From the NCBI GenBank assembly GCA_963204795.1, contig CAUJHX010000182.1:56903-120902 (forward strand): 64,000 bases of DNA, given 5' to 3'. Position 1 is the stretch's first letter, and every line of letters begins with the position of its first letter. The DNA is from Pseudomonadota bacterium (GTDB taxonomy: Bacteria > Pseudomonadota > Gammaproteobacteria > Steroidobacterales > Steroidobacteraceae). The notes beneath the pieces are model-generated. The model did no database searches and was not told the DNA's origin. It worked only from the letters and a program-made list of their open reading frames with translations. The translations under genes were made by a program, and so were the position numbers. This document shows, one piece after another, positions 31,823 to 44,423 of this stretch.

Positions 31823-32398
31823 GTGTCTGACGCTCATGCGACGGACACGTGTATGCAGTTCCCCGGTCTCACCCCCCAGCCGCCCGCGACTTTGTCGGGA
31901 TTCAACGGCGCCCCGGACACCGTCCGGGCGATGGTCCGGCAGGCGCAGGGGCTCCGCGGGGAGAAGTCCATGCTGGTCCGCTCCGTGGTCGAGCGGATCA
32001 CGGCCGGGCTCCAGCCGAAGGACTACCTCGGCGAGATGATCGCTGTGCGCAACTGGGTCGCGGAGAACGTGCGCTACCTGAACGACCCGCTGCACGTCGA
32101 GCTGGTGAAGGACCCGCAGCGCCTGATTGAAGAGGTCATGGCGTGGGGTAAGGCGTCGGCCGATTGCGACGAGATCGCGTGCCTCATCGGCACCATGTGC
32201 TTGCAGCTCGGGCGCGTCGTCGAGTTCGTGATCGTCGGCTTCGGCGAGCGCGGCAGCTACTCGCACGTGTTCTGCCGCGTGCTGGAGCCCAAGTCCAACA
32301 AGTGGGTGGTTCTCGACACGGTAGCGGGAACAGGTGAGCGCGGCATGCTCCAGCGCGTGACCACCTACAAGACCTGGAGCCTGGACGAGGCAGCATGA
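31823..32398 (+). CDS. transglutaminase-like (papain-fold) cysteine protease-domain protein
   Basis: 191 aa. SADCDEIACLIGTMCLQLG (Cys), SYSHVFCRV (His) and WVVLDTV (Asp) occur in the order and spacing typical of the transglutaminase-like core. Confidence 0.6.
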   Translation: MSDAHATDTCMQFPGLTPQPPATLSGFNGAPDTVRAMVRQAQGLRGEKSMLVRSVVERITAGLQPKDYLGEMIAVRNWVAENVRYLNDPLHVELVKDPQRLIEEVMAWGKASADCDEIACLIGTMCLQLGRVVEFVIVGFGERGSYSHVFCRVLEPKSNKWVVLDTVAGTGERGMLQRVTTYKTWSLDEAA

Positions 32399-32736
32399 CC
32401 TATCACAGTGGAATGGGCGCACTGCCAACCTGCGTGAGCCAAGCGGAGCATGACGCGGCTGTCATCGCCTGCAAGAAGACCCAAGTCAGAGGCATTGGCG
32501 CAGTCGCAGGGATCGATCCGTGCCAGCTCAAGCTGCTTCCGATCTGCACGTACGTGCGCTCGAACATCAGCACGACCTACGCGCCGCCCCCGCCGCCGGT
32601 GGACATCAGCACGCCTCCTGGTCCGCAGCCGGAAGACGCCGGCGACGAACCCAACTACGCGCTCTGGGGCGGACTCGGCTTGCTGCTGGTGGCCGCAGGC
32701 GGCTACGTCGTCTACAAGGCCACCAAGAAGAAATGA
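32395..32736 (+). CDS. tail-anchored membrane protein (113 aa), paralog of 46168-46842
   Basis: Starts MTYHSGMGA. Pro-rich linker. EPNYALWGGLGLLLVAAGGYVVYKATKKK at the C-terminus. ATGA overlap. Confidence 0.7.
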   Translation: MTYHSGMGALPTCVSQAEHDAAVIACKKTQVRGIGAVAGIDPCQLKLLPICTYVRSNISTTYAPPPPPVDISTPPGPQPEDAGDEPNYALWGGLGLLLVAAGGYVVYKATKKK

Positions 32737-32743
32737 GAACCGG

Positions 32744-33418
32744 ATGAACCGCTACCGCAACATTCGTCCGCGCTATCCCGTCTACTCGCAGACGCGTTTC
32801 GACGGAGACCTTCCACCGCCGGGCTCGTTCGGCCCACCGGACATGCGCCCGAGCGGTTCCAACCCTGCGTACTCGGTGTATGCAGGCGCCTACGGCCGCC
32901 ACCTGGCAGGACTGAACGGAGTGCAGATGAACAGCGCAGACGAAGGCATCAAGGACTACCCGAACGAGCTGGACGCGCTGCAGGTCGCGGACGACGTCAA
33001 CGGCAACGGCATGTTCGACCCGGCGGGGAGCCATGGAAACGTGCACCCCGACTACGGCGTGTTCGCCGATCACGAGTCGCTCCCCGGCTACATCGCCCGC
33101 GACAAGTTCTACACTCCCTCGGAGGTCACTGACGCGACGACGGGTCAGCAGATCATGTACGTGCCTGCCGGAGCCGTCTCCATCGACCACGCGCAGATGC
33201 AGGCGTTCAACAACCGGCTGCTCTGGGATCTGCCGCCTGGCGTGAACCCCTACGCGACCACCGACGTGCCCGACATGTCGATGGTGACGCCGTGGGAAGC
33301 GGCGACCCCCATCGGTCAGACCCCGCCGGAGCCGGCATCGCCCACGAAGATGTTCCTGGTTGCCGGCATCGCTGGCTTGAGCATCGGGCTCTTCGCGGCC
33401 CTGATGATGAAGAAGTGA
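32744..33418 (+). CDS. tail-anchored membrane protein (224 aa)
   Basis: Starts MNRYRNIRPRYPVYSQ. C-terminus MFLVAGIAGLSIGLFAALMMKK. Confidence 0.65.
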   Translation: MNRYRNIRPRYPVYSQTRFDGDLPPPGSFGPPDMRPSGSNPAYSVYAGAYGRHLAGLNGVQMNSADEGIKDYPNELDALQVADDVNGNGMFDPAGSHGNVHPDYGVFADHESLPGYIARDKFYTPSEVTDATTGQQIMYVPAGAVSIDHAQMQAFNNRLLWDLPPGVNPYATTDVPDMSMVTPWEAATPIGQTPPEPASPTKMFLVAGIAGLSIGLFAALMMKK

Positions 33419-33424
33419 GGAAGC

Positions 33425-33829
33425 ATGTACGTCCCGATGCAAAACACCGTCGCCGACTACTACCCCGCGCACTACACGCTGCCGGCTGCGCGCGAGCGAG
33501 TCGAGTCGTTGGGCGCGCTGGATCTGACTGCCCCGGGCCTCGCAGCGATCAAGTTCGCGAAGATGCGAGCGAACGCCGTCGGCGCATACGACGACGAGAC
33601 CCAGGTCTTCGCAGACACCAACGTGCCCACATGGATGATGGGCGCGACGGGGCTGCTGATCCTCGGCGCGGTCGCCGTCGTGGCCGGCGCGCTGAACTAC
33701 CAGATGGGCAAGGCGATGGCGCCGAGCGCCGACAAGAGGAAGACGTGGGGCTGGATCGGAGTGCCGCTCGGCTTCGTGCCGCTCGGGCTGCCGATCATGG
33801 CCATCGTGTCCAACTCGAAGAAGGGGTGA
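33425..33829 (+). CDS. membrane protein (134 aa, 2-3 TM)
   Basis: Starts MYVPMQNTVADYYPAHY. TMs WMMGATGLLILGAVAVVAGAL and WGWIGVPLGFVPLGLPIMAIV. Confidence 0.65.
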   Translation: MYVPMQNTVADYYPAHYTLPAARERVESLGALDLTAPGLAAIKFAKMRANAVGAYDDETQVFADTNVPTWMMGATGLLILGAVAVVAGALNYQMGKAMAPSADKRKTWGWIGVPLGFVPLGLPIMAIVSNSKKG

Positions 33830-33833
33830 GACG

Positions 33834-34247
33834 ATGCCCAGCATCTACGATCCCTCGACGTACCCGCAAGGCGTGCCTAATCCGCTCGGACCGAGGGTGC
33901 ATGCCTGGACGGGCGGTCCGTTCAATGAAGGGCAGCGTTTTCACGGCCCGGTCTACACAAGGCCCCAGGCAACCTTGCCGTGGCAAGAGCGTCCGCTGTG
34001 GGGCGTCGGAAGTGAGCCCATTGTGGGCTCCGCTTCTCGCCAGTGGTGGGATGATCCTGCGTACCAGGCGATCCGCGTCGTCGGCTACGTCGGCAGCCTG
34101 GCTGGCACGGCCGCTGGTGCCTATCACGGGTACAAGCGCAACGGAGGTTCCGTGGGCTGGGGGATCGGGTGGGCGCTCTTGGGTGGAATGTTCTGGCCCA
34201 TCGCGCTGCCGATCATGTTCGTGCAAGGATTCGGAGAGAGAAAATGA
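33834..34247 (+). CDS. membrane protein (137 aa)
   Basis: Starts MPSIYDPSTYPQG. C-terminal GWGIGWALLGGMFWPIALPIMFVQGF. Confidence 0.65.
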   Translation: MPSIYDPSTYPQGVPNPLGPRVHAWTGGPFNEGQRFHGPVYTRPQATLPWQERPLWGVGSEPIVGSASRQWWDDPAYQAIRVVGYVGSLAGTAAGAYHGYKRNGGSVGWGIGWALLGGMFWPIALPIMFVQGFGERK

Positions 34248-34777
34248 GCTACCACGCACCACGTCGCCGCGCTTCGCGACCGGACATGTTCCGAGGCGGG
34301 ATCGACCGCCCTGATGCTTTCCGGTTCGGCGGCGGGATCGACCGGCCGGACTTCATGTTCGCGCCGGCCTTCCATGGCCTCGGCCAGCTCACCATGGATC
34401 CGCAGACCGTCGCGCTGCTCAAGGGCTGCTCAGACAACTGCGAGAAGCAGTTCGGTGTGGCAAGCGGGCACCCGGACGTGTTCTCGCTGAGCATGTGCTT
34501 CGCCAACTGCAACGTGCAGTACCCGCCGACCGTGACGGTCCCGGGCGGTGGAGCGATCACGCCACCGGCGCTCCCGCCCGTTCCGGGCACGCCTCCAGTC
34601 GAGCCGGTCCCGCCGGTCGTTCCCGGCGTCACCGAGCCCGGATTGCCGCCGCCCGGGACCAAGCCACCGACGCCGCAGCCGCCGGTCGTGAAGGCTGGTG
34701 GAGACATGAAGCTGTGGGTCATCGGCGGAGCGGTCGCTGTTGCCGCTGTCGGGGCATTCTTCTACTTCCGAAAGTGA
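34244..34777 (+). CDS. tail-anchored membrane protein (177 aa)
   Basis: ATG 34244 (ATGA overlap). Starts MSYHAPRRR. Pro-rich linker. C-terminus LWVIGGAVAVAAVGAFFYFRK. Confidence 0.65.
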   Translation: MSYHAPRRRASRPDMFRGGIDRPDAFRFGGGIDRPDFMFAPAFHGLGQLTMDPQTVALLKGCSDNCEKQFGVASGHPDVFSLSMCFANCNVQYPPTVTVPGGGAITPPALPPVPGTPPVEPVPPVVPGVTEPGLPPPGTKPPTPQPPVVKAGGDMKLWVIGGAVAVAAVGAFFYFRK

Positions 34778-34788
34778 AAGGCTGAACG

Positions 34789-35520
34789 ATGCGACAAGTG
34801 CGAACGCGAGGTGGAGTCTTCGGCAGCGGAGGCTACGGCGGCGGACTCTTCGACGGATCCCAATCTGGCTTTGGCGGCGTTGGCGGTCTCGGTGCGACGT
34901 ACGAGCAAGCTGCGGCCGGTCTGGGGGCCATCCAGGACCCGACGGGTCAATCCTGGAACAACACCACGTACCAGGCCTGCATGGGACATCAGGTCCAGAA
35001 GTGCGGGGCCGAAGGCTACGCCTACAAGTGGAGCGCAGCGGAAACGAATGCGTGCATCGAGGCGGCACAGAAGGGCTGCATCGCCGCCGCGAAAGCTGCT
35101 GCCACTTCGCTGTCGAAGGCCCAGGTGATCGCTTTGCAGCAAGCGATCAACGCGAAGCTGCAGCAATACAACTACTGCCCCATCGGGGTAGACGGAAATC
35201 TGGGACCGACGACGTGCGGGGCGGCAGCATGGGCCGCCGGCGTGGGCGCTGCAGGCGTCACGGTCCCTGGTGCTTGCGGCACCACCATCAAAGTGGGCAG
35301 CGGGTTCCTGAAGGACTGCGCTCCGGGGACTCCGCCCCCAGAGCCGGCGCCGGTGACTCCGCCTGCGCCCCCTCCCGTCGCGCCGCCGCCTGTCACTCCG
35401 CCCATCCCGCCGCCGCCCATCAAGAAGGGTGGCGTCTCCACCGCCTGGATCGTCGGAGGCCTCCTGGCCGCAGGCCTCGTCGCCGGCGTCGCGGTCGCGG
35501 CCTCGAAGAAGAAGCACTGA
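34789..35520 (+). CDS. tail-anchored membrane protein with PG-binding-like domain (243 aa)
   Basis: VIALQQAINAKLQQYNYCPIGVDGNLGPTTCGAAAW resembles a peptidoglycan-binding (PG_binding_1-type) repeat. C-terminus AWIVGGLLAAGLVAGVAVAASKKKH. Confidence 0.6.
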   Translation: MRQVRTRGGVFGSGGYGGGLFDGSQSGFGGVGGLGATYEQAAAGLGAIQDPTGQSWNNTTYQACMGHQVQKCGAEGYAYKWSAAETNACIEAAQKGCIAAAKAAATSLSKAQVIALQQAINAKLQQYNYCPIGVDGNLGPTTCGAAAWAAGVGAAGVTVPGACGTTIKVGSGFLKDCAPGTPPPEPAPVTPPAPPPVAPPPVTPPIPPPPIKKGGVSTAWIVGGLLAAGLVAGVAVAASKKKH

Positions 35521-35534
35521 TCACGGAGTGCAGG

Positions 35535-36110
35535 ATGAACCACCGATATTTCGACGTCGCGCACCTGAACGCCCCCTACAAGACGCGGGCGCTGCAAGGT
35601 CTGTCCGGTGACAGGGCGTATCGCAGTCAGGCTGATCTGAACGCGCAGTACGACCCATTGCCGATGCGCGGGCTCGGCGCCGGCGTCCTGTCCGCCGGAC
35701 CGACGGGTTCGCTCGGAGCCGTCACCGCGAACTATCCGTGGAAGCAGTACAGCGCCGACACGGTGGCGCTGCAGAAGGCCATGAACGAAGCGCTCAAGGC
35801 GAACGGGTACTGCCAGATCGAACCAGATGGCAAACTGGGCGCAGCGACCTGTGGCGCGATCAAGAAGATGCTGGAGATCAGTGGCCAGACGGATCAGTCC
35901 CCGCCGTCTACCTGCCAGAGCTTCACCGCGCCCACGAAGGGCCCGTGCGGCGGTGGAACTCCTGCTCCGCCACCCGGGACACCGACGAAGGTCACCCCGT
36001 TGGTCAAGGCATCGGGCTTCGACAGCGGGACCCTTTGGATCGTCGCCGGCGGCGTCGTCGCCGTCGCCGCCATCGGGGGCGCCTTCTACTTCACGCGAAA
36101 GGGTCGCTGA
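35535..36110 (+). CDS. tail-anchored membrane protein with PG-binding-like domain (191 aa)
   Basis: Starts MNHRYFD. Contains TVALQKAMNEALKANGYCQIEPDGKLGAATCGAIKKML. C-terminus LWIVAGGVVAVAAIGGAFYFTRKGR. Confidence 0.6.
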   Translation: MNHRYFDVAHLNAPYKTRALQGLSGDRAYRSQADLNAQYDPLPMRGLGAGVLSAGPTGSLGAVTANYPWKQYSADTVALQKAMNEALKANGYCQIEPDGKLGAATCGAIKKMLEISGQTDQSPPSTCQSFTAPTKGPCGGGTPAPPPGTPTKVTPLVKASGFDSGTLWIVAGGVVAVAAIGGAFYFTRKGR

Positions 36111-36457
36111 TGCCTGGTCCCGTCGAAATGATCCAGAAGAAGCTCGGTGTGCCCGCGAGCGGGCACTGGGATCCGATCACGCTCGGCGCACTCGCGGCCT
36201 TCCAGGCCGGCCAGCCCGCGCTCGTGCCGAGCGGCCACCCTGACGTGCCCACGCTCGCGCTGCTCGGCTACTACGACCCGCTCCAGGCGGTGGATCCGAA
36301 GTGGGCGGGATACGTCAAGGGCGGCAAGCGACCGAGCACGTTCGGACGCGATCTCGCGTCGGCGTCGAACCAGGCTCCGCAATGGGCGTGGCTGGGCGTC
36401 GGCGTGCTGCTGCTCGGCGTCGGGTTCTGGACGTGGAAGAAGTCGAGGAAGGCATGA
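36110..36457 (+). CDS. tail-anchored membrane protein with PG-binding-like N-terminus (115 aa)
   Basis: TGATG overlap. Contains VEMIQKKLGVPASGHWDPITLGALAAFQ. C-terminus WAWLGVGVLLLGVGFWTWKKSRKA. Confidence 0.55.
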   Translation: MPGPVEMIQKKLGVPASGHWDPITLGALAAFQAGQPALVPSGHPDVPTLALLGYYDPLQAVDPKWAGYVKGGKRPSTFGRDLASASNQAPQWAWLGVGVLLLGVGFWTWKKSRKA

Positions 36458-36726
36458 AGCTCATCGGGATCGGAGCGCTGGACCCGAAGAACCAGCCCTG
36501 GAACACTCCAGACTACCAGGAGTGCGTCGGCAAAAAGATCCAGGCGTGCGGCGTCGCCCACCAGGGAGCAGAGCCGACCGTGGTGCAGTCTTGCATCGAC
36601 GCGGCTCAGTCCAGTTGCCTGGGCGAGGCCGCTGACAAGGCGCGTCTGCGCTGGATGCTCATTGGGGTCGGGTTCGGGACGGTCGCTGTCGCGCTGATCT
36701 GGAGACACAAGCGGAGGAGTGCCTGA
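36454..36726 (+). CDS. tail-anchored membrane protein (90 aa), Cys-containing ectodomain
   Basis: ATGA overlap. C-terminus WMLIGVGFGTVAVALIWRHKRRSA. Confidence 0.6.
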   Translation: MKLIGIGALDPKNQPWNTPDYQECVGKKIQACGVAHQGAEPTVVQSCIDAAQSSCLGEAADKARLRWMLIGVGFGTVAVALIWRHKRRSA

Positions 36727-37538
36727 TGGCCAGCCTGGAAGACCTTGCTGCGAAGTTCTCGGTGGAGTCCCTGCCTGCAGGCGCCAGCGACTACGACCGA
36801 TTGGAGTTCCTGTTCTACTGGGCCAAGAACGCCGAGCAGGTCATCGCCGCGTTGCCGGAGCCAACCGTCGTCGGCGACACCGTCTTCGGCGACATGGAGG
36901 ACGTGAAGAAGGCCGTGGAGGTCGTGGCCGAGGCCGCGAACCCGGTTCAGGTTGCAGCGTCTTCCATGCGGAACTTCTTGCTCTTGTCGTTCGTCGCGGC
37001 GACCTGGGGGATCAAGGCGCATCATCCGAACGCGCGGCAGATGCTCGTCAAAACGGGTCAAGTGACTGCGGCCGAGCTGGACGCCGACTACCGCCGGCGA
37101 CTCGGAGTGCTGCAGGCCATCACGAAGCTCGGGACCTCGGGCTTCCTGGACCCGTTGTTCGCCCTGAAGGGCAAGGCCCTCGGGCTCGCGCCGCTGGTCA
37201 TCGGCGGGTTGAGCATTCCCGGGTACATCGTGATCGGAACGATTGCGCTCGTCGTGTTCGCGATTGCGCTCGTTGCCATTTCGCTGACGGCACTCTTTCT
37301 GTTCAACCGCTTCGTCCAGAAGTGGTGCTTCGATGACCAGGGGAACCCACGCGAGCAGACCAAGGAGAAGTGTCCGGAGCTGTTCGACGAGGCTGCCGGC
37401 CTCGCTCGCGGTCCCAGCGATCTCTTGTCCAAGGTCGTCACCTATGCGGCGGTGGGGCTCGGCGTCTACGCTCTCATCGTTCTCGGTCCAGACATCATCC
37501 AGGGCATCAAGGGCTTCTCCAAAGCGGCGCGAGCATGA
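36726..37538 (+). CDS. polytopic membrane protein (270 aa)
   Basis: TGATG overlap. Hydrophobic segments FLLLSFVAATWGI, LAPLVIGGLSIPGYIVIGTIALVVFAIALVAISLTALFLF and YAAVGLGVYALIVLG. Confidence 0.65.
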   Translation: MASLEDLAAKFSVESLPAGASDYDRLEFLFYWAKNAEQVIAALPEPTVVGDTVFGDMEDVKKAVEVVAEAANPVQVAASSMRNFLLLSFVAATWGIKAHHPNARQMLVKTGQVTAAELDADYRRRLGVLQAITKLGTSGFLDPLFALKGKALGLAPLVIGGLSIPGYIVIGTIALVVFAIALVAISLTALFLFNRFVQKWCFDDQGNPREQTKEKCPELFDEAAGLARGPSDLLSKVVTYAAVGLGVYALIVLGPDIIQGIKGFSKAARA

Positions 37539-37541
37539 ACC

Positions 37542-37877
37542 ATGCTGGTGTACTCACAATGGCGCCCTGACGGAGGGTACGACTACTACGAAGCGACGTC
37601 GCAGGTCGCGCCCCTGGGAGACGACCTCGGGGTCCCGAAGCTGGAAGTCATCAACGGCATCGGCGCGCCATCGGTCGAAGCTGGAAGGGCGATCCCTCGT
37701 GGCGCGCGGCACGTCGGCACAGGCGAGCTTCCTCTCGGCGTTGTTGCTCCCATGGAGCGCGGCAGGATTGGCGCCGTGTCATCCTTCATAGGCGACATGC
37801 CGCCGTGGCTGGCCTTCATGGCCGGCGCTGCGGCCATCGGGTTCGTGTGGCTCGTGTGGGGACAGGACAAGAAATGA
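37542..37877 (+). CDS. tail-anchored membrane protein (111 aa)
   Basis: Starts MLVYSQWRPDGGYDYYEA. C-terminus WLAFMAGAAAIGFVWLVWGQDKK. Confidence 0.65.
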   Translation: MLVYSQWRPDGGYDYYEATSQVAPLGDDLGVPKLEVINGIGAPSVEAGRAIPRGARHVGTGELPLGVVAPMERGRIGAVSSFIGDMPPWLAFMAGAAAIGFVWLVWGQDKK

Positions 37878-38419
37878 CGCGCGTCGTAGATACCAGCGAG
37901 CAGGCCGAGAAGACGTTCCGCACGTTCATGGCGAAGGAGCACAAGCGTCACGTGCCCATGAACTTCTCGTGGCCAAAGACGATGCAAGAGATCGGCGTCG
38001 GCAAGGCGGTGATGTACCGCTCCAACAAGTGGAAGAGCAACCCGAAGGAGTTCGAGGACTACAAGCACATTGCCGAGTCCGAGCAGGCCGTCTACGTGAC
38101 CCCGGGCTTCCTGCGTGAGTGGAGCAACCCACGGCAGAAGATCGAGGTCCATGGGCCGATGGTGAAGCTGCAGGAGCCGATGCCGAGCCACTTCGCCGTC
38201 CTGGCGCCGCTGCTCGGTGTGCAGCTCCGCCTGTCCGGGCCGGGCTCAAACGATGAAAGCGACCTGTTCGAGGTCGTGGTCAAGCACGGAATGCTGGGGG
38301 CTGCGGTGCATCCGGAGACGAAGGAGCCGTTCATCTTCGTCTACACGACGGCCGGCGGAGTGCACATGCTGCTGACTGGCAAGGAGCTGGACGTCGAGAA
38401 AGATGGAATCGTCGGATGA
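37874..38419 (+). CDS. soluble hypothetical protein (181 aa)
   Basis: ATG 37874 (ATGA overlap). Starts MTRVVDTSEQAEKTFRTFMAKEHKRH. Confidence 0.6.
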   Translation: MTRVVDTSEQAEKTFRTFMAKEHKRHVPMNFSWPKTMQEIGVGKAVMYRSNKWKSNPKEFEDYKHIAESEQAVYVTPGFLREWSNPRQKIEVHGPMVKLQEPMPSHFAVLAPLLGVQLRLSGPGSNDESDLFEVVVKHGMLGAAVHPETKEPFIFVYTTAGGVHMLLTGKELDVEKDGIVG

Positions 38420-38622
38420 ACACGGTCACTCAGGTCGTCGAACTGCTGAAGACGCTGCAGCAGCAGCTCACGCAGTTCCAAGAGAAGGAAGAGGCTCATC
38501 ACCGTGAGATCAACGGCACGCTGGCGCTCCTGATCGAGGACAAGCGCGAACAGGGGCAGAGGCTCACCCTGCTGGAGAGTCGCGTCGGCAAGCTCGAAGA
38601 GAAGCTGCAGAAGGTGGGCTGA
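38416..38622 (+). CDS. small coiled-coil protein (68 aa)
   Basis: ATGA overlap. The sequence is heptad-like throughout. Confidence 0.55.
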   Translation: MNTVTQVVELLKTLQQQLTQFQEKEEAHHREINGTLALLIEDKREQGQRLTLLESRVGKLEEKLQKVG

Positions 38623-38626
38623 CGAC

Positions 38627-39802
38627 ATGACCTACCATTTCATAGGCGCCCCCGGAATCGGCGAATACACCGGCTACAACACGGGTCCAGTCGGAGCAGA
38701 AATCGTGCGGCGCGGAGGCGCCACGGATAGCTCCAGTCTGAAGGCCTACGCTGCGGCTGGCGCTGGCGCCGGAGGCGCAGCGTTGTGTACGGCGTACGGA
38801 GCGGCGGCTGCGGCGCCGTTGTGTGCCAGCATCGCCTCAACGGTTGTCGGTACGCTGCTCAGCGTCGGCAAAGCCACCGCCGGCCCCGGCTGCTACAGCA
38901 TTGCCCATTATTGGAACAACAACGCGCTCCCGCGCGTAAGAGCAGCTGCCGAGGGGCAGCTGGCGATTCGCAGCTACCTGGCAATGCGCGATCAGGCTAT
39001 CGACGAAGCGGCGAAGGCTGGGGCGGACAAGAAGTGGGCGGACAAGTGGCTATCGGAGCACGGCATCCCTGGCGCACCGATCATTCCGGAGTGGTCGCCG
39101 CGACAAGACCTGTACGAGACGTACAAGGCGATGGCGATCTGGTCGGAGCACCCCGTGGGCGCGGATCCTGTTGCAAAAGCGCAGGGGTATACGCACGGAA
39201 GCGGCATCAACCGCTGCGCGACCAACTACTTGTCCGGTCAGAGCTGTGGCCCAAGCGCTCAAAGCGTCGCAGACCAGCTCGGTCGCAAATGCCCCGAGTT
39301 CCTGCTGACCGCCTATCACTACCCGTTTGGATCACCTGCCGCCCCCGGAGAGCCGATCAACTGGGCAATGGTTGGCGCATACCAGGCCGTCCAGACGCTT
39401 CCTGGTCAGGCCAAGTCGGGACAGTGGTGGCCTGACGTCTGTCTGCCTATGCCCAACATGTTCGCCGGACAAGGATCGAGGCCGATCAATTCGACAACGC
39501 CGGGGTACTCCGCTCCGCAGGGCGAGGACGTCTGCAAAGCTCAGCCCAAGGTCAATGCCGCCAAGTGGACAACTTTCGCCAAAGTCATCCCCACGCAGCT
39601 CGCCGCAGAGCTGAGATTCAAGCTGCAGGATTCCAAGCCGCAGTTGCTCGCTGACGCAAAAAAACTCGGCGTCTTGAGCAGTCGTCTCGTACTCGTCCGG
39701 GCGGAGCCCAGGAAAGGCAAAAGCTCCGCTCTCGCAATCGCAGCCGTTGGCATCGCGGGACTTGGTGCCGGCGGGTGGTGGTGGTGGAAGCGCCGGCGCT
39801 AG
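38627..39802 (+). CDS. large tail-anchored membrane protein (391 aa)
   Basis: Starts MTYHFIGAPGIGEYTGY. Cys-containing ectodomain. C-terminus ALAIAAVGIAGLGAGGWWWWKRRR. Confidence 0.7.
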   Translation: MTYHFIGAPGIGEYTGYNTGPVGAEIVRRGGATDSSSLKAYAAAGAGAGGAALCTAYGAAAAAPLCASIASTVVGTLLSVGKATAGPGCYSIAHYWNNNALPRVRAAAEGQLAIRSYLAMRDQAIDEAAKAGADKKWADKWLSEHGIPGAPIIPEWSPRQDLYETYKAMAIWSEHPVGADPVAKAQGYTHGSGINRCATNYLSGQSCGPSAQSVADQLGRKCPEFLLTAYHYPFGSPAAPGEPINWAMVGAYQAVQTLPGQAKSGQWWPDVCLPMPNMFAGQGSRPINSTTPGYSAPQGEDVCKAQPKVNAAKWTTFAKVIPTQLAAELRFKLQDSKPQLLADAKKLGVLSSRLVLVRAEPRKGKSSALAIAAVGIAGLGAGGWWWWKRRR

Positions 39803-39996: not shown

Positions 39997-40075
39997 CCAC
40001 CCGTTAGCGACAACGTGGGTCGTGGCGTCTGACCGCCTCCACTGTTCTGCCGCGTAGGCAGAGGTGTATGTGGGC

Positions 40076-42388
40076 ATGAGTCAGAAAGCCGTCGGACGAG
40101 CCTTCAGGATCACGGACAAGGACGCGAGGTCATATGACCGGACGACCAAGCCGCGCTCCAAGATGCGCCCGAACCCGATGGGGGTGACCACGCTCGCGAT
40201 GGTCAACGGCCGCGGCGCATATGCGTCAGCGAAGGCTGGCGCTCAGGGCCAAACCAGGGCGCAGCGCCTCGCGCGGGCCCGCAAGCTGATCGGAGGCAAG
40301 GGCATGCAGTCCAACGCTCGCGGCCATCGCGCCGCGTTCATTTCCGCCATGCGGTCCAACAAGGGCTCCGCGAAGAGCAAGGGCTCGGGCGCCAAGAGCA
40401 CGGATCTCCGCCGCCGCGGCAAGCGGCTGGCCGCCTACAAGTCCGCCCTGAAGCGCAACGGGACCAAGGCCGGCGCGGCTCGGGCGGCGCTTCGCGCGGT
40501 GCCGTTCACCGCGAACGAGCGCAAGCGCAAGACGAGCTTCGCGGGCGTGAAGGCTCGCAAGAAGTACCGCCGCAACGACTTCGTCGGTGTCGGCAAGTCG
40601 GCCTGGGGCGAAGCGGGCGCAAGCAAGCCGGCAGCGAAAGCGAAGAACAAGCAGCCTCGCACGCAGCGTCGCCCGACGCGCGCGCAGTACCAGGCTCCTC
40701 CTCCAGAGAAAAAGAAGACCTCGCGAAAGGGAAAGCAAGTGGCGAAAGCGAAGCGAAAGACCAAGGCAAAGAAGCGTCGCGCGGCCGGTTCCCAGTACCG
40801 GACCGTGAAGCAGACCGTGAAGCGCAAGACTCGCGTCGCGTTCGGCAAGTACAAGCGTGCCCGGCTCTACAACCCGCGCACCGGGAAGACCGAGTACAGC
40901 TACATGTACCGCTCCGGCGGCAAGCTGCGCCGGATCCCGACCGCAGCCGTCTCGGGCTGGGGAGAGCGGGGCAAGAAGTCCGGCGAGCGCGCCACGAAGA
41001 TGGCGGCTCGCATGCAGGCGGCGCGCAAGCGCGCTGCCGACCGAATCCTCAAGGAGGGCGACGTGTTCATCCCGAACAAGAAGCGCAAGACCAAGAAGAA
41101 GCGCAAGGGCTCCAGCAAGCGCAAGAGCGCGAAGCGCGTGGCGGCCGGCAAGAAGGCAGCTCGCACGCGCAAGCGCCGGGCGAAGGCATCGGGCGCGAAG
41201 CGGCGCAAGTCGAAGGGCGGCGCGAAGCGCAAGCGCAAGAGCGCGAAGGCATCGGGCGCGAAGCGGCGCAAGTCGAAGGGCGGCGCGAAGCGCAAGCGCA
41301 AGAGCGCGAAGCGCGTGGCGGCCGGCAAGAAGGCAGCTCGCACGCGCAAGCGCAAGGGCGGCGGCAAGAAGCGCAAGGCGAGCGCGAAGCGCGGCGGCAA
41401 GCGCGGCGGCAAGCGCCGGAGCGGCGCAAAGCGTCTGCGGAAGGGCACGTACTACGTGGCCAACCGTCGGCGTCGGCGGAGCAAGGGTCGTCGGATGCGC
41501 AAGAACGCGTTCATGGCGAACCTGAAGAACGTGCTCATCACCGGCACGCTCGTCGCCGTCGGCTACATGGGTCACCGCGTGCTCACCTCGCTCGCCTGCG
41601 AGTACATCTTCACGCCGTACGTCACGGCGCCCGAAGGCAAGGAGCCGAACCTCGCGCTCAAGACCTGGGAGAAGCCCATCTGCGGCGCCGTCGTCGGCCT
41701 CGTGGGTGTCGGCGCGCTCTCGGTCATGGCCGACAAGCGGATCATGTCGGGTGAAACCGCCATGAAGATCGGTGGCGGCATGGTGGCCTCGCTCGTTCAG
41801 TACGTCGTCGTGAGCGCTCTCGCTCAGTTCGACCAGCCGAAGGCAGCGAGCTACCTGAGCGGCTACTCCAACTCGGCGGCCTACGGCCTGCGCGGCAACC
41901 GCCGCGGCATGTCCGGGATGTCGAGCATCATGCCCCACTACCAGCAGCTGGGAGCCTTCCAGCAGGCGGCGGCGGGCATGGGCGAGTACTTCACCGGCAC
42001 CGGCGCCTTCGAGCAGGCGGCGGCGGGCGTCGGCGAGTACTTCGTGCCGGGTGGCACCAAGGGCGTCGGTCAGTACGAGGCCGCGGGCCCGCTCGCCATG
42101 CAGGCGGCGGCCAACGGCATCGGCGAGATCGAGGACGGCATCCGTCCGGACTCGAACCTCGACCACGTGCTCGATCTGGCGGAGTCGGCGGCCGGCCTCG
42201 GTGAGTACTACACCGCGACCCCGGGCGCCGGCGGCTATGCCGAGGGCACCGTCCCCCAGCAGAGCCAGTGGATCCCCAACGGTCCGCTGTGGGCCGGCAC
42301 CATGGCGGCCAAGGACACGATGGCCACGAGCGAGCTGCCTGCAGGCGTGCTCGCGACCGTCGGAGGCAACGGCGTCCTGAGCGGCTGA
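40076..42388 (+). CDS. polybasic (Lys/Arg/Ala) repeat protein fused to a membrane domain and a GxGEY-repeat tail
   Basis: 770 aa from ATG 40076 (track GTG 40064). The first roughly 470 aa are K/R/A/G-rich with perfect internal repeats. Hydrophobic helices follow: VLITGTLVAVGYMG, ICGAVVGLVGVGALSVMA and IGGGMVASLVQYVVVSALA. The tail carries GMGEYF, GVGEYF, GVGQYE, GIGEIE and GLGEYY. Confidence 0.7.
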   Translation: MSQKAVGRAFRITDKDARSYDRTTKPRSKMRPNPMGVTTLAMVNGRGAYASAKAGAQGQTRAQRLARARKLIGGKGMQSNARGHRAAFISAMRSNKGSAKSKGSGAKSTDLRRRGKRLAAYKSALKRNGTKAGAARAALRAVPFTANERKRKTSFAGVKARKKYRRNDFVGVGKSAWGEAGASKPAAKAKNKQPRTQRRPTRAQYQAPPPEKKKTSRKGKQVAKAKRKTKAKKRRAAGSQYRTVKQTVKRKTRVAFGKYKRARLYNPRTGKTEYSYMYRSGGKLRRIPTAAVSGWGERGKKSGERATKMAARMQAARKRAADRILKEGDVFIPNKKRKTKKKRKGSSKRKSAKRVAAGKKAARTRKRRAKASGAKRRKSKGGAKRKRKSAKASGAKRRKSKGGAKRKRKSAKRVAAGKKAARTRKRKGGGKKRKASAKRGGKRGGKRRSGAKRLRKGTYYVANRRRRRSKGRRMRKNAFMANLKNVLITGTLVAVGYMGHRVLTSLACEYIFTPYVTAPEGKEPNLALKTWEKPICGAVVGLVGVGALSVMADKRIMSGETAMKIGGGMVASLVQYVVVSALAQFDQPKAASYLSGYSNSAAYGLRGNRRGMSGMSSIMPHYQQLGAFQQAAAGMGEYFTGTGAFEQAAAGVGEYFVPGGTKGVGQYEAAGPLAMQAAANGIGEIEDGIRPDSNLDHVLDLAESAAGLGEYYTATPGAGGYAEGTVPQQSQWIPNGPLWAGTMAAKDTMATSELPAGVLATVGGNGVLSG
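41117..41353 (+). repeat. nested perfect direct repeats inside the polybasic gene
   Basis: A 63-bp unit occurs twice in tandem at 41180-41242 and 41243-41305 (AKASGAKRRKSKGGAKRKRKS). It is flanked by a 60-bp direct repeat at 41117-41176 and 41294-41353 (KRKSAKRVAAGKKAARTRKR). Confidence 0.9.
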
Positions 42389-42540: not shown

Positions 42541-43323
42541 ATGTCGAAATTGACCAACGTGAGGGAGCGCGTCCACCAGCCGTTCTACGACACCCTGATC
42601 CGGACTTCCGGTCTCGGTGGCACCATCCAGCCGGTCGGCAGCCCCACCAACCTCTTCACCAACCGCGCTCGCGCGGACGAGATCGTCGCGCTGACGAACC
42701 TGGACAACGGCAGCACCCTGCCGTCCGACCAGTCGCACGTGACGCTCGCGCTCCGCTGCTTCACGTGGTTCCGCAACCCGCAGATCCGCTCGGCGGCCCC
42801 GGGCGCGAACGTGCAGGTCAACAACAACGGCGACTACTCGCAGGCCGGCGCGGCGGCCTTCTGGGCGCTGGGCGGCGGCCTTCCGGGCGACGGATCGTCC
42901 ATCGGTTCGATCCAGGACGTCTACCGGCTGCACTGGCAGTCGATGGAGCAGCTCCACTGGTCGTACGGCACTGGTGAGAAGTTCAGTATCACCAACATGG
43001 CGACCAAGTACTTCCCCGACGGGGGTGGCCTCTCGGGCGACATGGGCGGGACCTCGGACCTGATCCACTGGCAGAACGGTACGCCGGACCACACCGCGAT
43101 CCTCCGGCTCGCGCGTGCGATCCTGCTTCCGCCTCGCCAGAACGTGAAGTGCGTCGCCAACATCAGCGCCCTCCCGGCTGGTGGCCAGGCGGCGGCCGTG
43201 GGCGCAGTGACGGCCATCGGCCGGAACATGCTCTCGCTGGTCGACAACCTGAACGCGGTGGACGGGATCGCCAAGGTGATCCAGTTCTGCTTCGACGGCT
43301 TGTTCGCACGCGATGTCCAGTGA
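42541..43323 (+). CDS. major capsid protein candidate (260 aa, beta-rich)
   Basis: Best RBS in the window (AAAGGAGAATTACAGCC-ATG). Own 150-bp upstream spacer. An intrinsic terminator follows immediately. The function is inferred from expression signals and position only. Confidence 0.45.
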   Translation: MSKLTNVRERVHQPFYDTLIRTSGLGGTIQPVGSPTNLFTNRARADEIVALTNLDNGSTLPSDQSHVTLALRCFTWFRNPQIRSAAPGANVQVNNNGDYSQAGAAAFWALGGGLPGDGSSIGSIQDVYRLHWQSMEQLHWSYGTGEKFSITNMATKYFPDGGGLSGDMGGTSDLIHWQNGTPDHTAILRLARAILLPPRQNVKCVANISALPAGGQAAAVGAVTAIGRNMLSLVDNLNAVDGIAKVIQFCFDGLFARDVQ

Positions 43324-43457: not shown

Positions 43458-44423
43458 ATGGCAAATCTCGATCAGATCCTTCGTCAGATGCAGCAGCAGA
43501 TCGGGTTCGCGGCGGCGACGGCGCGCGAGACCCAGACTGGCATGCAGAACGTGAGCGGCGACCAGGCGCTCATCCGTCAAGAGCTTCAGCGCCAGCAGCG
43601 CGACCTGCAGAACGTGGCCGACGCCCTCATGCGCGTCAAGGCCAGCGGCGGCCAGGGGGGCGCGAGCATCAGCGACCACGTCCGCTACATCGAGTCGATC
43701 CCGGGGCGACGCGTTCCGTTCGACATGCTGGTGGACATCCCCATCGGGGCCAACCAGACCGCTCAGACGCAGGGCACGATCACGGTGTCGCAGGACGGAC
43801 CGTTCGTGGCCGTCGCTCGCTTCGCGATCTTTCAGAGCGCGTTCCAGTTCCAGTTCCGCGATCCGCAGGACAACAGCCTGGCTGCGTTCCAGGGACGCTC
43901 CTTCGGTCGCTACCGGCCGATCCACTCGGTGAACGACTGGAATGACGCGGGCGCGGGCTACAACCCGGTCATCGCACTGGGCGCAGGCGCGCCGATCTTC
44001 GCGAGCCCGAGCAACCACTCGTCGTTCCGCACGATGGAGTGGGATGGCGTCGTCGAGTTCTTCAACCAGGGCGCGGCCTATCCGCGGTCCAACATCCAGG
44101 TGCCGAGCGCCTTCTGGGTGAGCGAGAACAACGCTCCGTTCCAGCTCGGTGCGCTCGACTTCTTCGAGCGCGGCGAGACGATGCAGTGGCGAGTCACGCC
44201 GACGCACAGCAACAACCCAGCAGCGGGCAACGTGAGCGGCTTCGCCGCCGGCGGGTTCTACCCGTTCCTGGACAGCCAGTACGACGTGCAAGAGGGCGTG
44301 TCCGATCCGTTCCTGGCAGGTGTGGAAACCGATCCGATCACGCGGCTGCCGGACGGCATCCTGACCATCGGCTTCCACGGGTTCAGGATCATCCAGCCGC
44401 CGGGGCCCGTGAGCATGACCTGA
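43458..44423 (+). CDS. capsid-associated protein candidate (321 aa; N-terminal coiled coil plus beta-rich domain)
   Basis: ATG 43458 with a GGAGG RBS. Starts MANLDQILRQMQQQIGF. Beta-like segments TITVSQDGPFVAVARFAIFQS and ILTIGFHGFRIIQ. Confidence 0.45.
   Translation: MANLDQILRQMQQQIGFAAATARETQTGMQNVSGDQALIRQELQRQQRDLQNVADALMRVKASGGQGGASISDHVRYIESIPGRRVPFDMLVDIPIGANQTAQTQGTITVSQDGPFVAVARFAIFQSAFQFQFRDPQDNSLAAFQGRSFGRYRPIHSVNDWNDAGAGYNPVIALGAGAPIFASPSNHSSFRTMEWDGVVEFFNQGAAYPRSNIQVPSAFWVSENNAPFQLGALDFFERGETMQWRVTPTHSNNPAAGNVSGFAAGGFYPFLDSQYDVQEGVSDPFLAGVETDPITRLPDGILTIGFHGFRIIQPPGPVSMT

What the first reader, a model, noticed from the sequence alone, without database searches (positions are those of the whole stretch)
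32395..39802. Tail-anchored protein swarm shares an N-terminal M-x-Y-(H/Y) signature and a common architecture
Most members begin with a very similar aromatic N-terminus:
- MTYHSGMGA (32395)
- MTYHSSMGA (46168)
- MTYHFIGAP (38627)
- MSYHAPRR (34244)
- MSYYQMPN (52602)
- MAYYSGSG (48772)
- MNYEPYAP (45428)
- MYVPMQN (33425)
- MNRYRNIRPRYPVY (32744)
- MNHRYFD (35535)
- MLVYSQW..GGYDYYE (37542)
- MYRTAPA (50331)
- MMYRSLGS (52961)

The typical architecture is aromatic N-terminus, variable ectodomain, Pro-rich spacer, one TM helix, then KK/RK. The pair 32395 and 46168 are clear paralogs (EPNY-x-LWGGL).

A conserved extreme N-terminus across otherwise unrelated proteins suggests a shared recognition, processing or docking signal. 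It may instead reflect a constraint at the level of translation initiation.
Basis: seen in the sequence. Interest (0 to 1): 0.65.

Follow-up and report, generated by a model that had tools for sequence, protein, structure and literature searches.

The report
Shared N-terminal tag on viral membrane proteins
About twenty small membrane proteins of an undescribed large bacterial virus start with the same short tyrosine-glycine motif, which recurs in over twenty related viral genomes and probably lets one common partner recognise them all.

Summary
All 13 quoted N-termini are present. M-x-Y-(H/Y) starts 6 of 87 window proteins against 0.1 expected. 19 of 34 genes between 32395 and 53221 end in one transmembrane (TM) helix plus 2-5 Lys/Arg, against 2 of 53 elsewhere.

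It replicates in 22 related viral contigs. Tyr is residue 3 in 28% of 253 tail-anchored (TA) proteins against 5% of 407 others. This also holds per family and after controlling for start/stop overlap.

It is one copy of a short repeat, PLMAY(R/K)DGSLG or AAG(L/M)GEYF. That repeat occurs up to about eight times inside some of these proteins and in the C-terminal part of a giant DNA-binding-like membrane protein (40064-42388).

Residue 2 is partly a nucleotide constraint from [A/G]TGA overlaps. Tyr3 is not.

The N-domains carry even cysteine counts (107/139 against 121/259), so they are probably disulfide-bonded. Motif and basic segments always lie on opposite sides of the membrane.

Best reading, held at moderate confidence: these are the membrane proteins of a novel, apparently tail-less, possibly jelly-roll-capsid virus, and the motif is a docking or sorting peptide. 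Topology, partner, capsid fold and host remain unresolved.

The parts
31853..32398 (+). Transglutaminase-like (papain-fold) protein. Its stop overlaps the first TA gene as ATGA. Candidate processing enzyme only.
   Evidence: Pfam Transglut_core E = 4.8e-4, below the gathering score. Overlap read.
32395..32736 (+). TA protein of 113 aa. N-terminus MTYHSGMGA, 4 Cys, Pro-rich spacer, TM at 90-106, tail YKATKKK.
32744..33418 (+). TA protein of 224 aa. N-terminus MNRYRNIRPRYPVY (a loose member), tail MMKK.
33425..33829 (+). Membrane protein of 134 aa. N-terminus MYVPMQN, two helices with the last one at the C-terminus, tail ..SKKG.
33834..34247 (+). TA protein of 137 aa. N-terminus MPSIYDPSTYPQG, conserved in relatives as MSIYDP.SYP.
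34244..34777 (+). TA protein of 177 aa. N-terminus MSYHAPRR, internal AFHGLG, 4 Cys, 15 Pro before the helix, tail YFRK.
34789..35520 (+). TA protein of 243 aa. Gly/Phe/Tyr-rich N-terminus (GGVFGSGGYGGGLFDG..AAGLGA), 8 Cys, weak peptidoglycan-binding hint, 19 Pro before the helix.
35535..36110 (+). TA protein of 191 aa. N-terminus MNHRYFD, 4 Cys, weak PG_binding_1 hint. Paralogue of 34789 and 36454.
36128..36457 (+). TA protein of 109 aa, tail WKKSRKA.
36454..36726 (+). TA protein of 90 aa. Start revised to the ATG that overlaps the upstream stop. N-terminus MKLIGIGAL, 4 Cys, tail RHKRRSA.
36726..37538 (+). Conserved multi-pass membrane protein of 270 aa, not tail-anchored. Part of the module.
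37542..37877 (+). TA protein of 111 aa. N-terminus MLVYSQWRPDGGYDYYE. Core family, found even in the most distant clade.
38627..39802 (+). TA protein of 391 aa. N-terminus MTYHFIGAPGIGEYTGY, 8 Cys, tail WWWWKRRR.
40064..42388 (+). Giant membrane protein of 774 aa. About 480 aa with 33% Lys/Arg, then three hydrophobic segments, then a 185-aa low-charge C-terminal part carrying GMGEY, GVGEY, GVGQY, GIGEI and GLGEY.
42541..43323 (+). Most conserved core protein of the clade (260 aa). Candidate capsid component. No known family.
43458..44423 (+). Conserved beta-rich protein of 321 aa. Candidate major capsid protein. More than 1000 homologues, all unnamed.
44437..45300 (+). Third conserved core protein (287 aa). 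No known family.
45428..46171 (+). TA protein of 247 aa. N-terminus MNYEPYAP, 15 Pro before the helix, tail RELRKGKR.
46168..46842 (+). Membrane protein of 224 aa. N-terminus MTYHSSMGA, TM at 154-170 followed by a 54-aa tail, so not tail-anchored. Paralogue of 32395.
46839..47063 (+). TA protein of 74 aa. Start revised to the GTG that overlaps the upstream stop. N-terminus (M)NLIAVQGLGSLGQ, tail WRKRW.
47057..47284 (+). Small membrane protein of 75 aa with a C-terminal helix.
48506..48724 (+). TA protein of 72 aa, tail RKKW.
48772..49752 (+). TA protein of 326 aa. N-terminus MAYYSGSGATIRSGAAGLGEYF. Internal copies SYHDGSLG, GMGAY, AFRDGSLGEYF and SFRDGSLG.
49765..50331 (+). J-domain (DnaJ) protein with a zinc-finger-like motif. 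Conserved inside the swarm in relatives.
   Evidence: Pfam DnaJ E = 1.4e-13. Synteny.
50331..50780 (+). TA protein of 149 aa. N-terminus MYRTAPA. Orthologues begin MSYHGLG, MSYRGVGAGPG or MYRAVGAGPG.
52602..52964 (+). TA protein of 120 aa. N-terminus MSYYQMPN, internal GVGAY. Orthologues begin MSY[YW], MLGSYY or ..VGSF[YF].
52961..53221 (+). TA protein of 86 aa. N-terminus MMYRSLGS (a close relative is called as MYRSLGS), 6 Cys, tail ALRKR.

Best explanation
The swarm is the membrane-protein set of the structural module of a novel large virus of bacteria.

Each protein is anchored by one C-terminal helix. That helix is followed by a short Lys/Arg tail. The protein presents a variable N-terminal domain, usually disulfide-bonded, on the other face of the membrane.

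The conserved start, M-[STA]-Y-[HRY]-x-G-Φ-G, is a short linear motif. It is one copy of the aromatic-Gly repeat (PLMAY(R/K)DGSLG, AAGΦGEY[FY]) that is found in multiple copies in some of these proteins and in the C-terminal part of the giant basic membrane protein.

I infer that the motif is a docking or sorting peptide read by one common partner on the membrane face that is turned away from the genome. The partner could be the shell built from the conserved 42541/43458/44437 proteins, or an assembly factor. In this way very different membrane proteins would be gathered into, and held in, the viral membrane.

Shown:
- the motif, its specificity for TA proteins, its conservation, and its identity with the internal repeat;
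- the placement of motif and basic segments on opposite sides of the membrane;
- the cysteine parity.

Inferred:
- virion location;
- the docking function;
- the identity of the partner.
For: Motif and specificity:
- Enrichment in the window and in 22 relatives, at family level, and as a positional spike.
- Conservation within families over 41-98% identity, as strong as the core of the protein (A3).
- The protein-level nature of Tyr3.

Identity with the internal repeats:
- N-terminal M-A-Y-R-D-G-A-L-G and internal LMAYRDGSLG occur in the same family.
- GxG[EAQSDT][YF] occurs 9 times against 1.35 expected.
- The composite motif occurs 54 times inside TA proteins against 3.0 expected, and 5 times in non-TA proteins.

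Opposite faces:
- One helix separates motif and K/R tail in TA proteins.
- Three hydrophobic segments separate the 25-41% K/R region from the motif-bearing region in 16 of 19 homologues of the giant protein.

Structural-module context:
- The TA genes surround the three most conserved genes of the clade.
- The module shows conserved synteny.
- It has no Pfam or PHROG capsid, portal, terminase or tail hit.
- The model of 43458-44423 is beta-rich, and its best fold matches, though weak, are mostly jelly-roll capsid proteins.

Other support:
- Disulfide signature of the N-domains.
- A TA thioredoxin/glutaredoxin-like protein in relatives.

Precedents for the mechanism:
- The conserved capsid targeting sequence of the otherwise diverse T4 internal proteins (PMC3012670).
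- Vaccinia membrane protein A17, which binds a Phe-rich pocket of the jelly-roll scaffold D13 (PMC8971458).
Against: - No partner is identified and no binding is shown.
- The capsid fold is not established: pLDDT 68, best PDB fold E = 0.02, best viral-library E = 3e-4, TM-scores about 0.2.
- Virion location is inferred from gene position only.
- Long Pro-rich stalks (up to 19 Pro in 40 residues) fit surface spikes better than the narrow gap under a capsid.
- Topology is ambiguous. Tail-anchoring predicts N-in. The positive-inside rule, the even Cys counts and the weak peptidoglycan-binding hints predict N-out.
- The composite motif pattern was written after seeing the data.
- Orthologues are not independent observations.
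Confidence: 0.45

Rival explanations
1. The motif is an export or translocation signal. The proteins are type-I-like: N-domain outside, K/R tail in the cytoplasm. The conserved N-terminus replaces a signal peptide and directs the N-domain across the membrane, through a viral or host route not yet known.
For: - The positive-inside rule fits K/R tails in the cytoplasm.
- The roughly 480-aa, 33% K/R region of the giant protein cannot plausibly be translocated. With three helices, its motif-bearing C-terminal part is therefore predicted to lie outside.
- Cys counts are even in 107/139 TA proteins.
- There are weak peptidoglycan-binding hints (PG_binding_1 weak in a relative).
- Pro-rich stalks are present.
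- A J-domain protein could keep the clients unfolded.
Against: - No hydrophobic core is present in any N-terminus.
- A helix within about 10 residues of the C-terminus leaves the ribosome only after termination, so insertion is post-translational, and N-in is the orientation described for such proteins (PMC6794478).
- From my own knowledge, no precedent exists for moving 100-370-residue N-domains without a signal peptide.
- The motif also occurs in many internal copies, which is unlike an export signal.
Confidence: 0.15
2. The motif mediates self-association. The aromatic-Gly segments act as low-complexity 'stickers', like kinked aromatic segments or FG repeats. They bind each other weakly and multivalently, and so cluster the viral membrane proteins into a patch.
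For: - Sequences such as GGVFGSGGYGGGLFDGSQSGFGGVGGLG (34789), GYNTGPVG, SYHDGSLG and tandem GMGEYF.
- N-terminal regions are Gly/Pro-rich and poor in charge.
- Copy number varies from 1 to more than 8.
Against: - The sharp spike at residues 2-3 and the conserved order of residues point to a specific recognition site rather than to a composition effect.
- Most TA proteins carry only one copy.
Confidence: 0.15
3. The motif is a processing or modification site. It would be a cleavage site of a viral cysteine protease (31853-32398 or 22333-23064), of the Φ-x-G-x-G kind used by the adenovirus protease. Alternatively it would be a site for one of the two glycosyltransferases downstream (54094-55485, 55984-57030).
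For: - Papain-fold proteins are encoded.
- Glycosyltransferase genes close the module and are syntenic in relatives.
- The resemblance of Y-H-G-L-G to (M/L/I)-X-G-X-G is recalled from my own knowledge and is a lead only.
Against: - Cutting at an N-terminal copy would remove only 4-6 residues.
- Cutting at the internal copies would shred the proteins.
- The protease hits are weak (E = 4.8e-4 and 5e-7).
- There is no evidence of modification.
Confidence: 0.1
4. The motif has no specific function. It is a leftover of common descent in a tandemly duplicated gene family, combined with start-codon context ([A/G]TGA overlap, AT-richer early codons).
For: - Tandem arrays of MSY genes occur in L030 and L021.
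- Some families are paralogous.
- Residue 2 is shaped by the overlap.
- Tyr3 is more frequent in truly overlapping starts: 55% against 19%.
Against: - The motif is retained while the rest of the protein diverges beyond recognition, across clades that share only 26% identity in the conserved capsid-like protein.
- Non-TA genes in the same overlap context rarely have Tyr3 (8/70).
- The GC content of codons 2-6 is the same in TA and other genes (0.578 against 0.584).
- The motif recurs at internal positions, where initiation plays no part.
Confidence: 0.1

Closest known systems
Capsid targeting sequence (CTS) of bacteriophage T4 internal proteins
   Same: A short conserved sequence at the extreme N-terminus is the only thing shared by otherwise diverse proteins. 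It serves to bring them into the particle (PMC3012670).
   Different: - T4 CTS proteins are soluble and are loaded into an HK97-type prohead through the scaffolding core.
- From my own knowledge, the T4 CTS is then cleaved off.
- There is no sequence similarity.
- Here the carriers are membrane proteins, the motif also occurs internally in many copies, and neither cleavage nor an HK97 capsid is seen.
Vaccinia virus A17-D13 contact, and the poxvirus set of small single-pass virion membrane proteins
   Same: - A viral membrane protein binds a pocket of a jelly-roll lattice protein and so ties lattice to membrane (PMC8971458).
- Many small single-pass virion membrane proteins have disulfide-bonded domains.
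- From my own knowledge, poxviruses encode a redox pathway of their own. A TA thioredoxin/glutaredoxin-like protein in relatives would parallel it.
   Different: - Eukaryotic virus, with no detectable homology.
- In vaccinia only one protein (A17) carries the contact, not about twenty.
- The jelly-roll nature of the shell here is only hinted at.
Small membrane proteins of internal-membrane phages (PRD1, PM2, P23-77 and relatives)
   Same: - A structural module with many small membrane proteins next to the capsid genes.
- A tail-less look, with no HK97 capsid, portal or tail genes detected in the window.
   Different: - From my own knowledge, those genomes are about 10-30 kb. Here the contigs are 95-182 kb.
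- No sequence similarity.
- No shared terminal motif is described for them, and I found none in the literature.
Bacterial tail-anchored membrane proteins (E. coli DjlC, Flk; ElaB/YqjD type)
   Same: - One helix at the very C-terminus and no signal peptide. Post-translational insertion is expected, and DnaK helps against aggregation (PMC6794478).
- From my own knowledge, Gly-rich helices ending in two or three basic residues, as in ElaB.
   Different: - Cellular TA proteins are few per genome and share no N-terminal motif.
- Here there are up to 18 in roughly 21 kb of viral DNA.
- The N-domains look disulfide-bonded.
Encapsulin cargo-loading peptides
   Same: Short Gly/Ser/Leu-rich peptides dock many different cargo proteins to the inner face of a virus-like shell. 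The repeat core DGSLG resembles the cargo peptide core. This is recalled from my own knowledge and was not tested.
   Different: - Those peptides are mostly C-terminal, on soluble cargo, and bind an HK97-fold shell.
- The resemblance is five residues and may be chance.

Membership tests
Tail-anchored membrane proteins | A single transmembrane helix within about 30 residues of the C-terminus | tested here: met
   Hydropathy scan: 19 of 34 module proteins have a helix ending within 14 residues of the C-terminus, and 16 of them have that helix only.
Tail-anchored membrane proteins | No N-terminal signal peptide or other targeting helix | tested here: met
   The maximum 10-residue hydropathy in the first 35 residues is at most 1.76 in every TA protein. 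The signal-like control 27220 scores 2.49.
Tail-anchored membrane proteins | N-domain cytoplasmic, with post-translational insertion | not testable with these tools
   Sequence hints conflict: tail-anchoring suggests N-in, while the positive-inside rule and even Cys counts suggest N-out. Reporter fusions are needed.
Sec, Tat or lipoprotein signal peptides | Basic n-region, hydrophobic h-region, and a cleavage site, twin-arginine motif or lipobox | tested here: not met
   No h-region was found, and the N-termini are Gly/Tyr-rich and polar. The twin-arginine motif and the lipobox were not searched for separately.
Sortase, exosortase or rhombosortase C-terminal sorting signals (LPXTG, PEP-CTERM, GlyGly-CTERM) | A signature motif directly before the helix, plus helix, plus basic cluster, on a protein with a signal peptide | tested here: not met
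   Helix plus basic cluster are present. However, there is no LPXTG, only one chance PEP, no conserved pre-helix motif and no signal peptide.
Type IV pilin-like (class III) signal | A short leader ending in Gly, followed at once by a hydrophobic helix | tested here: not met
   No hydrophobic segment follows the G-Φ-G.
T4-type capsid targeting sequence | A conserved N-terminal decapeptide on proteins loaded into an HK97 prohead and removed by the prohead protease | tested here: not met
   No HK97 capsid, prohead protease or scaffold was detected in the window. There is no sequence resemblance. Only the logic is shared.
Jelly-roll capsid viruses with an internal membrane (Varidnaviria-like) | A major capsid protein with a jelly-roll fold | tested here: inconclusive
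   The AlphaFold model is beta-rich with pLDDT 68. The top fold matches are mostly jelly-roll capsid proteins but weak: PDB E at least 0.02, viral library E = 3e-4 to 1e-3, TM-scores about 0.2.
Jelly-roll capsid viruses with an internal membrane (Varidnaviria-like) | An FtsK/HerA-type packaging ATPase | tested here: inconclusive
   No such ATPase lies in the 64-kb window. The only Walker A motifs are in a kinase-like protein, a DnaC-like protein, DnaB and two TA proteins. The rest of the roughly 110-180 kb genome was not seen.

The most novel reading that the evidence does not exclude
A previously unrecognised lineage of large (about 100-180 kb) membrane-containing bacterial viruses uses a dedicated peptide code to build its membrane proteome. 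The code is an aromatic-Gly motif placed at the very N-terminus of up to about 18 tail-anchored proteins in the roughly 21 kb of each genome examined.

The motif would act in one of two ways:
- as a new kind of sorting or translocation signal that carries signal-peptide-less, disulfide-bonded domains to the outer face of the viral membrane; or
- as a multivalent zipper between the membrane and a new type of shell.
Probability: 0.2. Interest if true: 0.9.

Novelty: new variant of a known kind. Interest (0 to 1): 0.7.

Why it matters
If the motif is a sorting or docking code, it explains how a virus brings many unrelated, fast-evolving membrane proteins into one particle. It would also give a handle, an 8-residue tag, for loading foreign proteins onto a viral membrane.

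It also flags a widespread group of large viruses. The conserved capsid-like protein (43458-44423) has more than 1000 homologues in soil, sediment and water metagenomes, all unnamed. Contigs reach 182 kb. Their structural genes match nothing in Pfam, PHROGs, PDB or GenBank phages, and they may be the largest tail-less membrane-containing phages yet seen.

The conflict between tail-anchoring and the extracytoplasmic look of the N-domains makes this a concrete test case for how bacteria, or their viruses, place large domains across a membrane without a signal peptide.

Tried and rejected
Searches that returned nothing useful:
- Pfam and PHROGs on about 40 proteins: no capsid, portal, terminase or tail family, and nothing for the TA proteins except sub-threshold peptidoglycan-binding hints.
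- GenBank phages by tblastn with the capsid-like protein: no match.
- PDB by sequence for the three core proteins: only coiled-coil noise.
- ARAGORN: no tRNA or tmRNA gene.
- Literature searches for a description of this virus group or of a shared motif on phage membrane proteins: nothing relevant.

Structure prediction:
- The first AlphaFold model, from 47 close homologues, was poor (pLDDT 56).
- Adding a 26%-identity clade raised it to 68, but the fold searches stayed non-significant or borderline.

Host:
- The genome collection returned only three metagenome bins with inconsistent taxonomy: Pirellulales, Pseudomonadales and Methanomicrobiales.
- The host is therefore unknown.

Gene calling:
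- My first self-trained gene caller locked onto the wrong strand in two GC-rich loci.
- After the fix it matched database starts in 149 of 165 genes.

Ideas rejected:
- A sortase-type or PEP-CTERM-type sorting signal.
- A signal peptide or pilin-like leader.
- A pure translation-initiation constraint.
- A general aromatic composition of the N-terminal region: the enrichment is a spike at residues 2-3.

Full report
**1. What the window is**

The window has 63-69% G+C. From about 11.5 kb onward it is transcribed almost entirely on the + strand, with tightly packed and often overlapping genes.

Recognisable genes are of phage type:
- a YqaJ exonuclease and RecT;
- a DnaC/IstB-like ATPase;
- DnaB carrying a LAGLIDADG intein;
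- a papain-like peptidase and a transglutaminase-like protein;
- two glycosyltransferases;
- a 1554-aa protein containing a tyrosine-recombinase domain.

Nothing in the window matches a known capsid, portal, terminase or tail family in Pfam or PHROGs. The best-conserved structural-looking protein has no match in GenBank phages. There is no tRNA gene.

**2.

All 13 quoted N-termini are at the stated coordinates. For 32395 the start reads GCAGC-ATG-ACC-TAT-CAC-AGT-GGA-ATG-GGC, and the ATGA overlaps the stop of the transglutaminase-like gene.

Six of the 13 begin at the first possible start codon of their ORF. The others are fixed by overlap with the upstream stop and by orthologues.

The statistics in the window are:
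- M.Y[HY] starts six of 87 window proteins against 0.10 expected (P = 1.4e-9).
- Tyr3 occurs in 7 of 20 TA proteins against 3 of 67 others.
- Seven of 20 has a binomial probability of 2e-6 at the Tyr frequency of TA proteins.

The architecture is also as described. 19 of 34 genes between 32395 and 53221 have a helix ending within 14 residues of the C-terminus, against 2 of 53 elsewhere. The last six residues carry 1-4 Lys/Arg and almost no acidic residue. Seven proteins have 10-19 prolines in the 40 residues before the helix. None has a signal-peptide-like hydrophobic core, an LPXTG motif or a conserved pre-helix motif.

**3. It replicates in a large, undescribed virus clade**

The conserved protein 43458-44423 has 729 homologues at E up to 0.001. 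All are unnamed, on contigs up to 136 kb. A sister clade at 26% identity adds 295 more.

IMG/VR holds 21 related contigs of 9-182 kb. Gene order around the conserved genes is kept, including the J-domain gene inside the swarm. Some relatives add Cpn10 and a TA glutaredoxin/thioredoxin-like protein.

With genes called by the public databases, TA proteins of relatives begin MSYHGLGD, MSYRGVGAGPG, MYHGVGQ, MFRGVGQ, MSLHGLGT, MAYHSSSG, MSYYSTEG and so on. My own gene caller agrees with database starts in 149 of 165 genes.

Pooled over the window and 22 loci:

| Feature | TA proteins | Other proteins | P |
|---|---|---|---|
| Tyr at residue 3 | 72/253 | 21/407 | 1e-16 |
| M[STA]Y | 54/253 | 15/407 | 1e-12 |
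| G[LVIMF]G in the first ten residues | 44/253 | 12/407 | 1.6e-10 |

Most of the 15 exceptions with M[STA]Y are membrane proteins too.

Orthologues are not independent, so I repeated the test on BLAST-unlinked families. The count is 36/81 TA families against 15/195 others (P = 1e-11). For families with at least two members it is 13/29 against 4/38.

The Tyr profile is a spike: 10% at residue 2, 28% at residue 3, then a baseline of about 3%. Gly is raised at residues 5-12, and charged residues are depleted.

**4. Protein level or nucleotide level?**

Ser2 is encoded by AGC/AGT in 40 of 50 cases against 36% genome-wide. Many of these starts are [A/G]TGA, sharing TGA with the upstream stop. Residue 2 is therefore partly dictated by translational coupling.

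Three points show that the small residue plus Tyr is selected in the protein:
- Codon 2 also appears as TCG, TCC, ACC, ACG, GCG and AAC.
- Tyr3 is enriched in TA proteins both in truly overlapping starts (36/65 against 8/70, P = 5e-8) and in other starts (36/187 against 13/297, P = 3e-7).
- The GC content of codons 2-6 does not differ between TA and other genes.

**5. The signature is one copy of a repeat**

In the family of 52602, 29 database homologues align M-S-Y-[YW] with M-L-G-S-Y-Y, M-S-L-G-S-F-Y and MDRALKAVGSFY. Met1 takes the place of Gly, or of Φ-Gly (A3).

In the family of 48772, N-termini are either M-[AS]-Y-[YHF]-S or M-x(0-8)-G-[AS]-Y-F. One member starts MAYRDGALG, which is the same as the internal repeat (P)LMAY(R/K)DGSLG. 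That repeat, together with G(M/L)GEYF, occurs up to about eight times per protein.

In the window:
- 48772 carries MAYYSGSG, AAGLGEYF, SYHDGSLG, GMGAY, AFRDGSLGEYF and SFRDGSLG.
- 38627 has GIGEY at residue 10.
- 52602 has GVGAY at residue 47.
- The giant protein 40064-42388 has GMGEY, GVGEY, GVGQY, GIGEI and GLGEY in its last 140 residues.

GxG[EAQSDT][YF] occurs 9 times against 1.35 expected, and none of 300 shuffles reaches 9. A composite pattern occurs 54 times inside TA proteins against 3.0 ± 1.5 in shuffles, and 5 times in all non-TA proteins. That pattern was written after looking at the data, so the size of the effect counts for more than the P-value.

**6. Two further regularities**

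*Opposite faces.* In TA proteins one helix separates the motif from the K/R tail. In 16 of 19 homologues of the giant protein, three hydrophobic segments separate a 370-608-residue region of 25-41% Lys/Arg from the low-charge, motif-bearing C-terminal region. Motif and basic segments therefore lie on opposite faces of the membrane. This rests on a crude hydropathy count.

*Cysteine parity.* Among proteins that contain Cys, the count is even in 107/139 TA proteins against 121/259 others (P = 6e-11 against one half). In the window the counts are 4, 4, 8, 4, 4, 8, 2, 2, 2 and 6. The N-domains are thus very probably disulfide-bonded.

**7. What it most likely is**

The TA genes flank the three most conserved genes of the clade, 42541, 43458 and 44437.

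The AlphaFold model of 43458-44423 improved from pLDDT 56 to 68 with a deeper alignment. It shows an N-terminal helical hairpin followed by a beta-rich domain. Fold searches give no significant PDB match (best E = 0.02). They give three borderline matches in the viral library (E = 3e-4 to 1e-3). In both libraries the top of the list is dominated by jelly-roll capsid proteins: birnavirus VP2, picornavirus and nodavirus coats, circovirus Cap, giant-virus major capsid proteins, and PRD1 P3 and FLiP in the first run. TM-scores are only about 0.2. I treat 'jelly-roll capsid' as a hint only.

Together with the absence of tail and HK97 genes in 64 kb, the simplest reading is a structural module of a membrane-containing virus. 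Its membrane proteome would be this swarm.

The basic tails, and the huge basic region of 40064, are best placed next to DNA. The motif then sits on the other face, at the far end of each protein. That position suits contact with a common partner.

Known precedents show that such logic exists:
- The conserved capsid targeting sequence is the only feature shared by the diverse T4 internal proteins (PMC3012670).
- Vaccinia A17 ties the jelly-roll lattice protein D13 to the viral membrane through a Phe-rich pocket (PMC8971458).

The J-domain protein inside the swarm may pass the clients to host DnaK, which limits aggregation of bacterial TA proteins (PMC6794478). This last step is inference.

**8. 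What remains open**

Topology is the main problem. A helix this close to the C-terminus can only be recognised after translation ends, which is the definition of tail-anchoring, with N-in orientation (PMC6794478).

Four features instead point to an N-domain on the outer face:
- the positive-inside rule;
- the untranslocatable basic region of the giant protein;
- the even Cys counts;
- the Pro-rich stalks and the weak peptidoglycan-binding hints.

Either the domains are made in the cytoplasm and become external when the particle forms, with a viral thiol-redox helper as in poxviruses (my own knowledge). Or the motif takes part in an unknown export route. I give the docking/sorting reading 0.45, and the export, self-association, processing and 'no function' readings 0.10-0.15 each.

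The host is unknown. Three metagenome bins carry relatives, but their taxonomy disagrees. Shine-Dalgarno-like sequences precede most genes.

**9. Novelty**

I found no description of this virus group or of a shared terminal motif on phage membrane proteins. The proteins meet the sequence criteria of tail-anchored proteins. They fail those of signal-peptide, pilin-like and sortase-type signals.

The closest known systems are analogues in logic, not relatives. I therefore file the finding as a new variant of a known kind (a particle-targeting or docking peptide). There is a one-in-five chance that it is something categorically new.

Noticed in passing
window 32395-53221 and loci L001-L030: Among proteins with any Cys, TA proteins have an even number in 107 of 139 cases against 121 of 259 for other proteins. 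In the window the counts are 4, 4, 8, 4, 4, 8, 2, 2, 2 and 6. This points to disulfide-bonded N-domains.
   Followed up: yes
L008 1620-1934 and L009 1599-1907: Relatives encode a TA thioredoxin/glutaredoxin-like protein (MVEATLYKAEWCEPC..., Pfam Glutaredoxin) among the TA genes, and a Cpn10 (GroES) gene downstream. The window lacks both.
   Followed up: partly
window 47309-47695, 47707-48084, 48084-48509 and 21068-21520: Three tandem paralogues all begin MGN and share SSLASD.Q and a C-terminal DG(H/S)RWMG.I motif. BLAST groups a fourth copy at 21068 with them. Relatives begin MSRYG.. or MGNF.. They are soluble and their function is unknown.
   Followed up: partly
window 16105-18825: The DnaB helicase is interrupted by an intein with a LAGLIDADG homing-endonuclease domain.
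   Followed up: no
window 58933-63597: A 1554-aa protein has a tyrosine-recombinase (phage integrase) domain only in its first third. The remaining roughly 1000 residues are unassigned. Its G+C is unusually high at the first codon position in overlapping frames.
   Followed up: no
window 40064-42388, residues about 330-470: Near-exact tandem repeats of a Lys/Arg-rich unit (GAKRRKSKGGAKRKRKSAKASGAKRRKSKGGAKRKRKSAKRVAAGKKAARTRKR). The C-terminus ELPAG(I/V)L..GGNG.LSG is conserved across the clade.
   Followed up: partly
window 29078-31516: An 812-aa protein with a long coiled-coil, Glu/Arg-rich centre and a Pro/Gln/Ala-rich region, lying directly upstream of the swarm. It has no family match. 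It could be a scaffold-like or tape-measure-like protein.
   Followed up: no
window 54094-55485 and 55984-57030: Two glycosyltransferase genes close the structural module and are syntenic in relatives (GT4, 'GT4-conflict'). They could glycosylate particle proteins.
   Followed up: no
protein P0288 (3486 aa): A giant protein matches the folded C-terminal domain of 48772-49752 (residues 231-318) in 22 separate stretches. That domain therefore also exists as a long tandem array elsewhere.
   Followed up: no
L030 10644-13850 and L021 12003-15862: Distant relatives carry runs of five to seven consecutive genes that all start MSY (MSYISTGA, MSYVLRGVG, MSYLADYR, MSYLGLGH, MSYYRTRA ...). These are tandem expansions of the tagged TA genes.
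   Followed up: partly
window 45428-46171, residues 144-151: A Walker-A-like GDAGSGKT lies inside a TA protein. It is probably chance and was not examined further.
   Followed up: no
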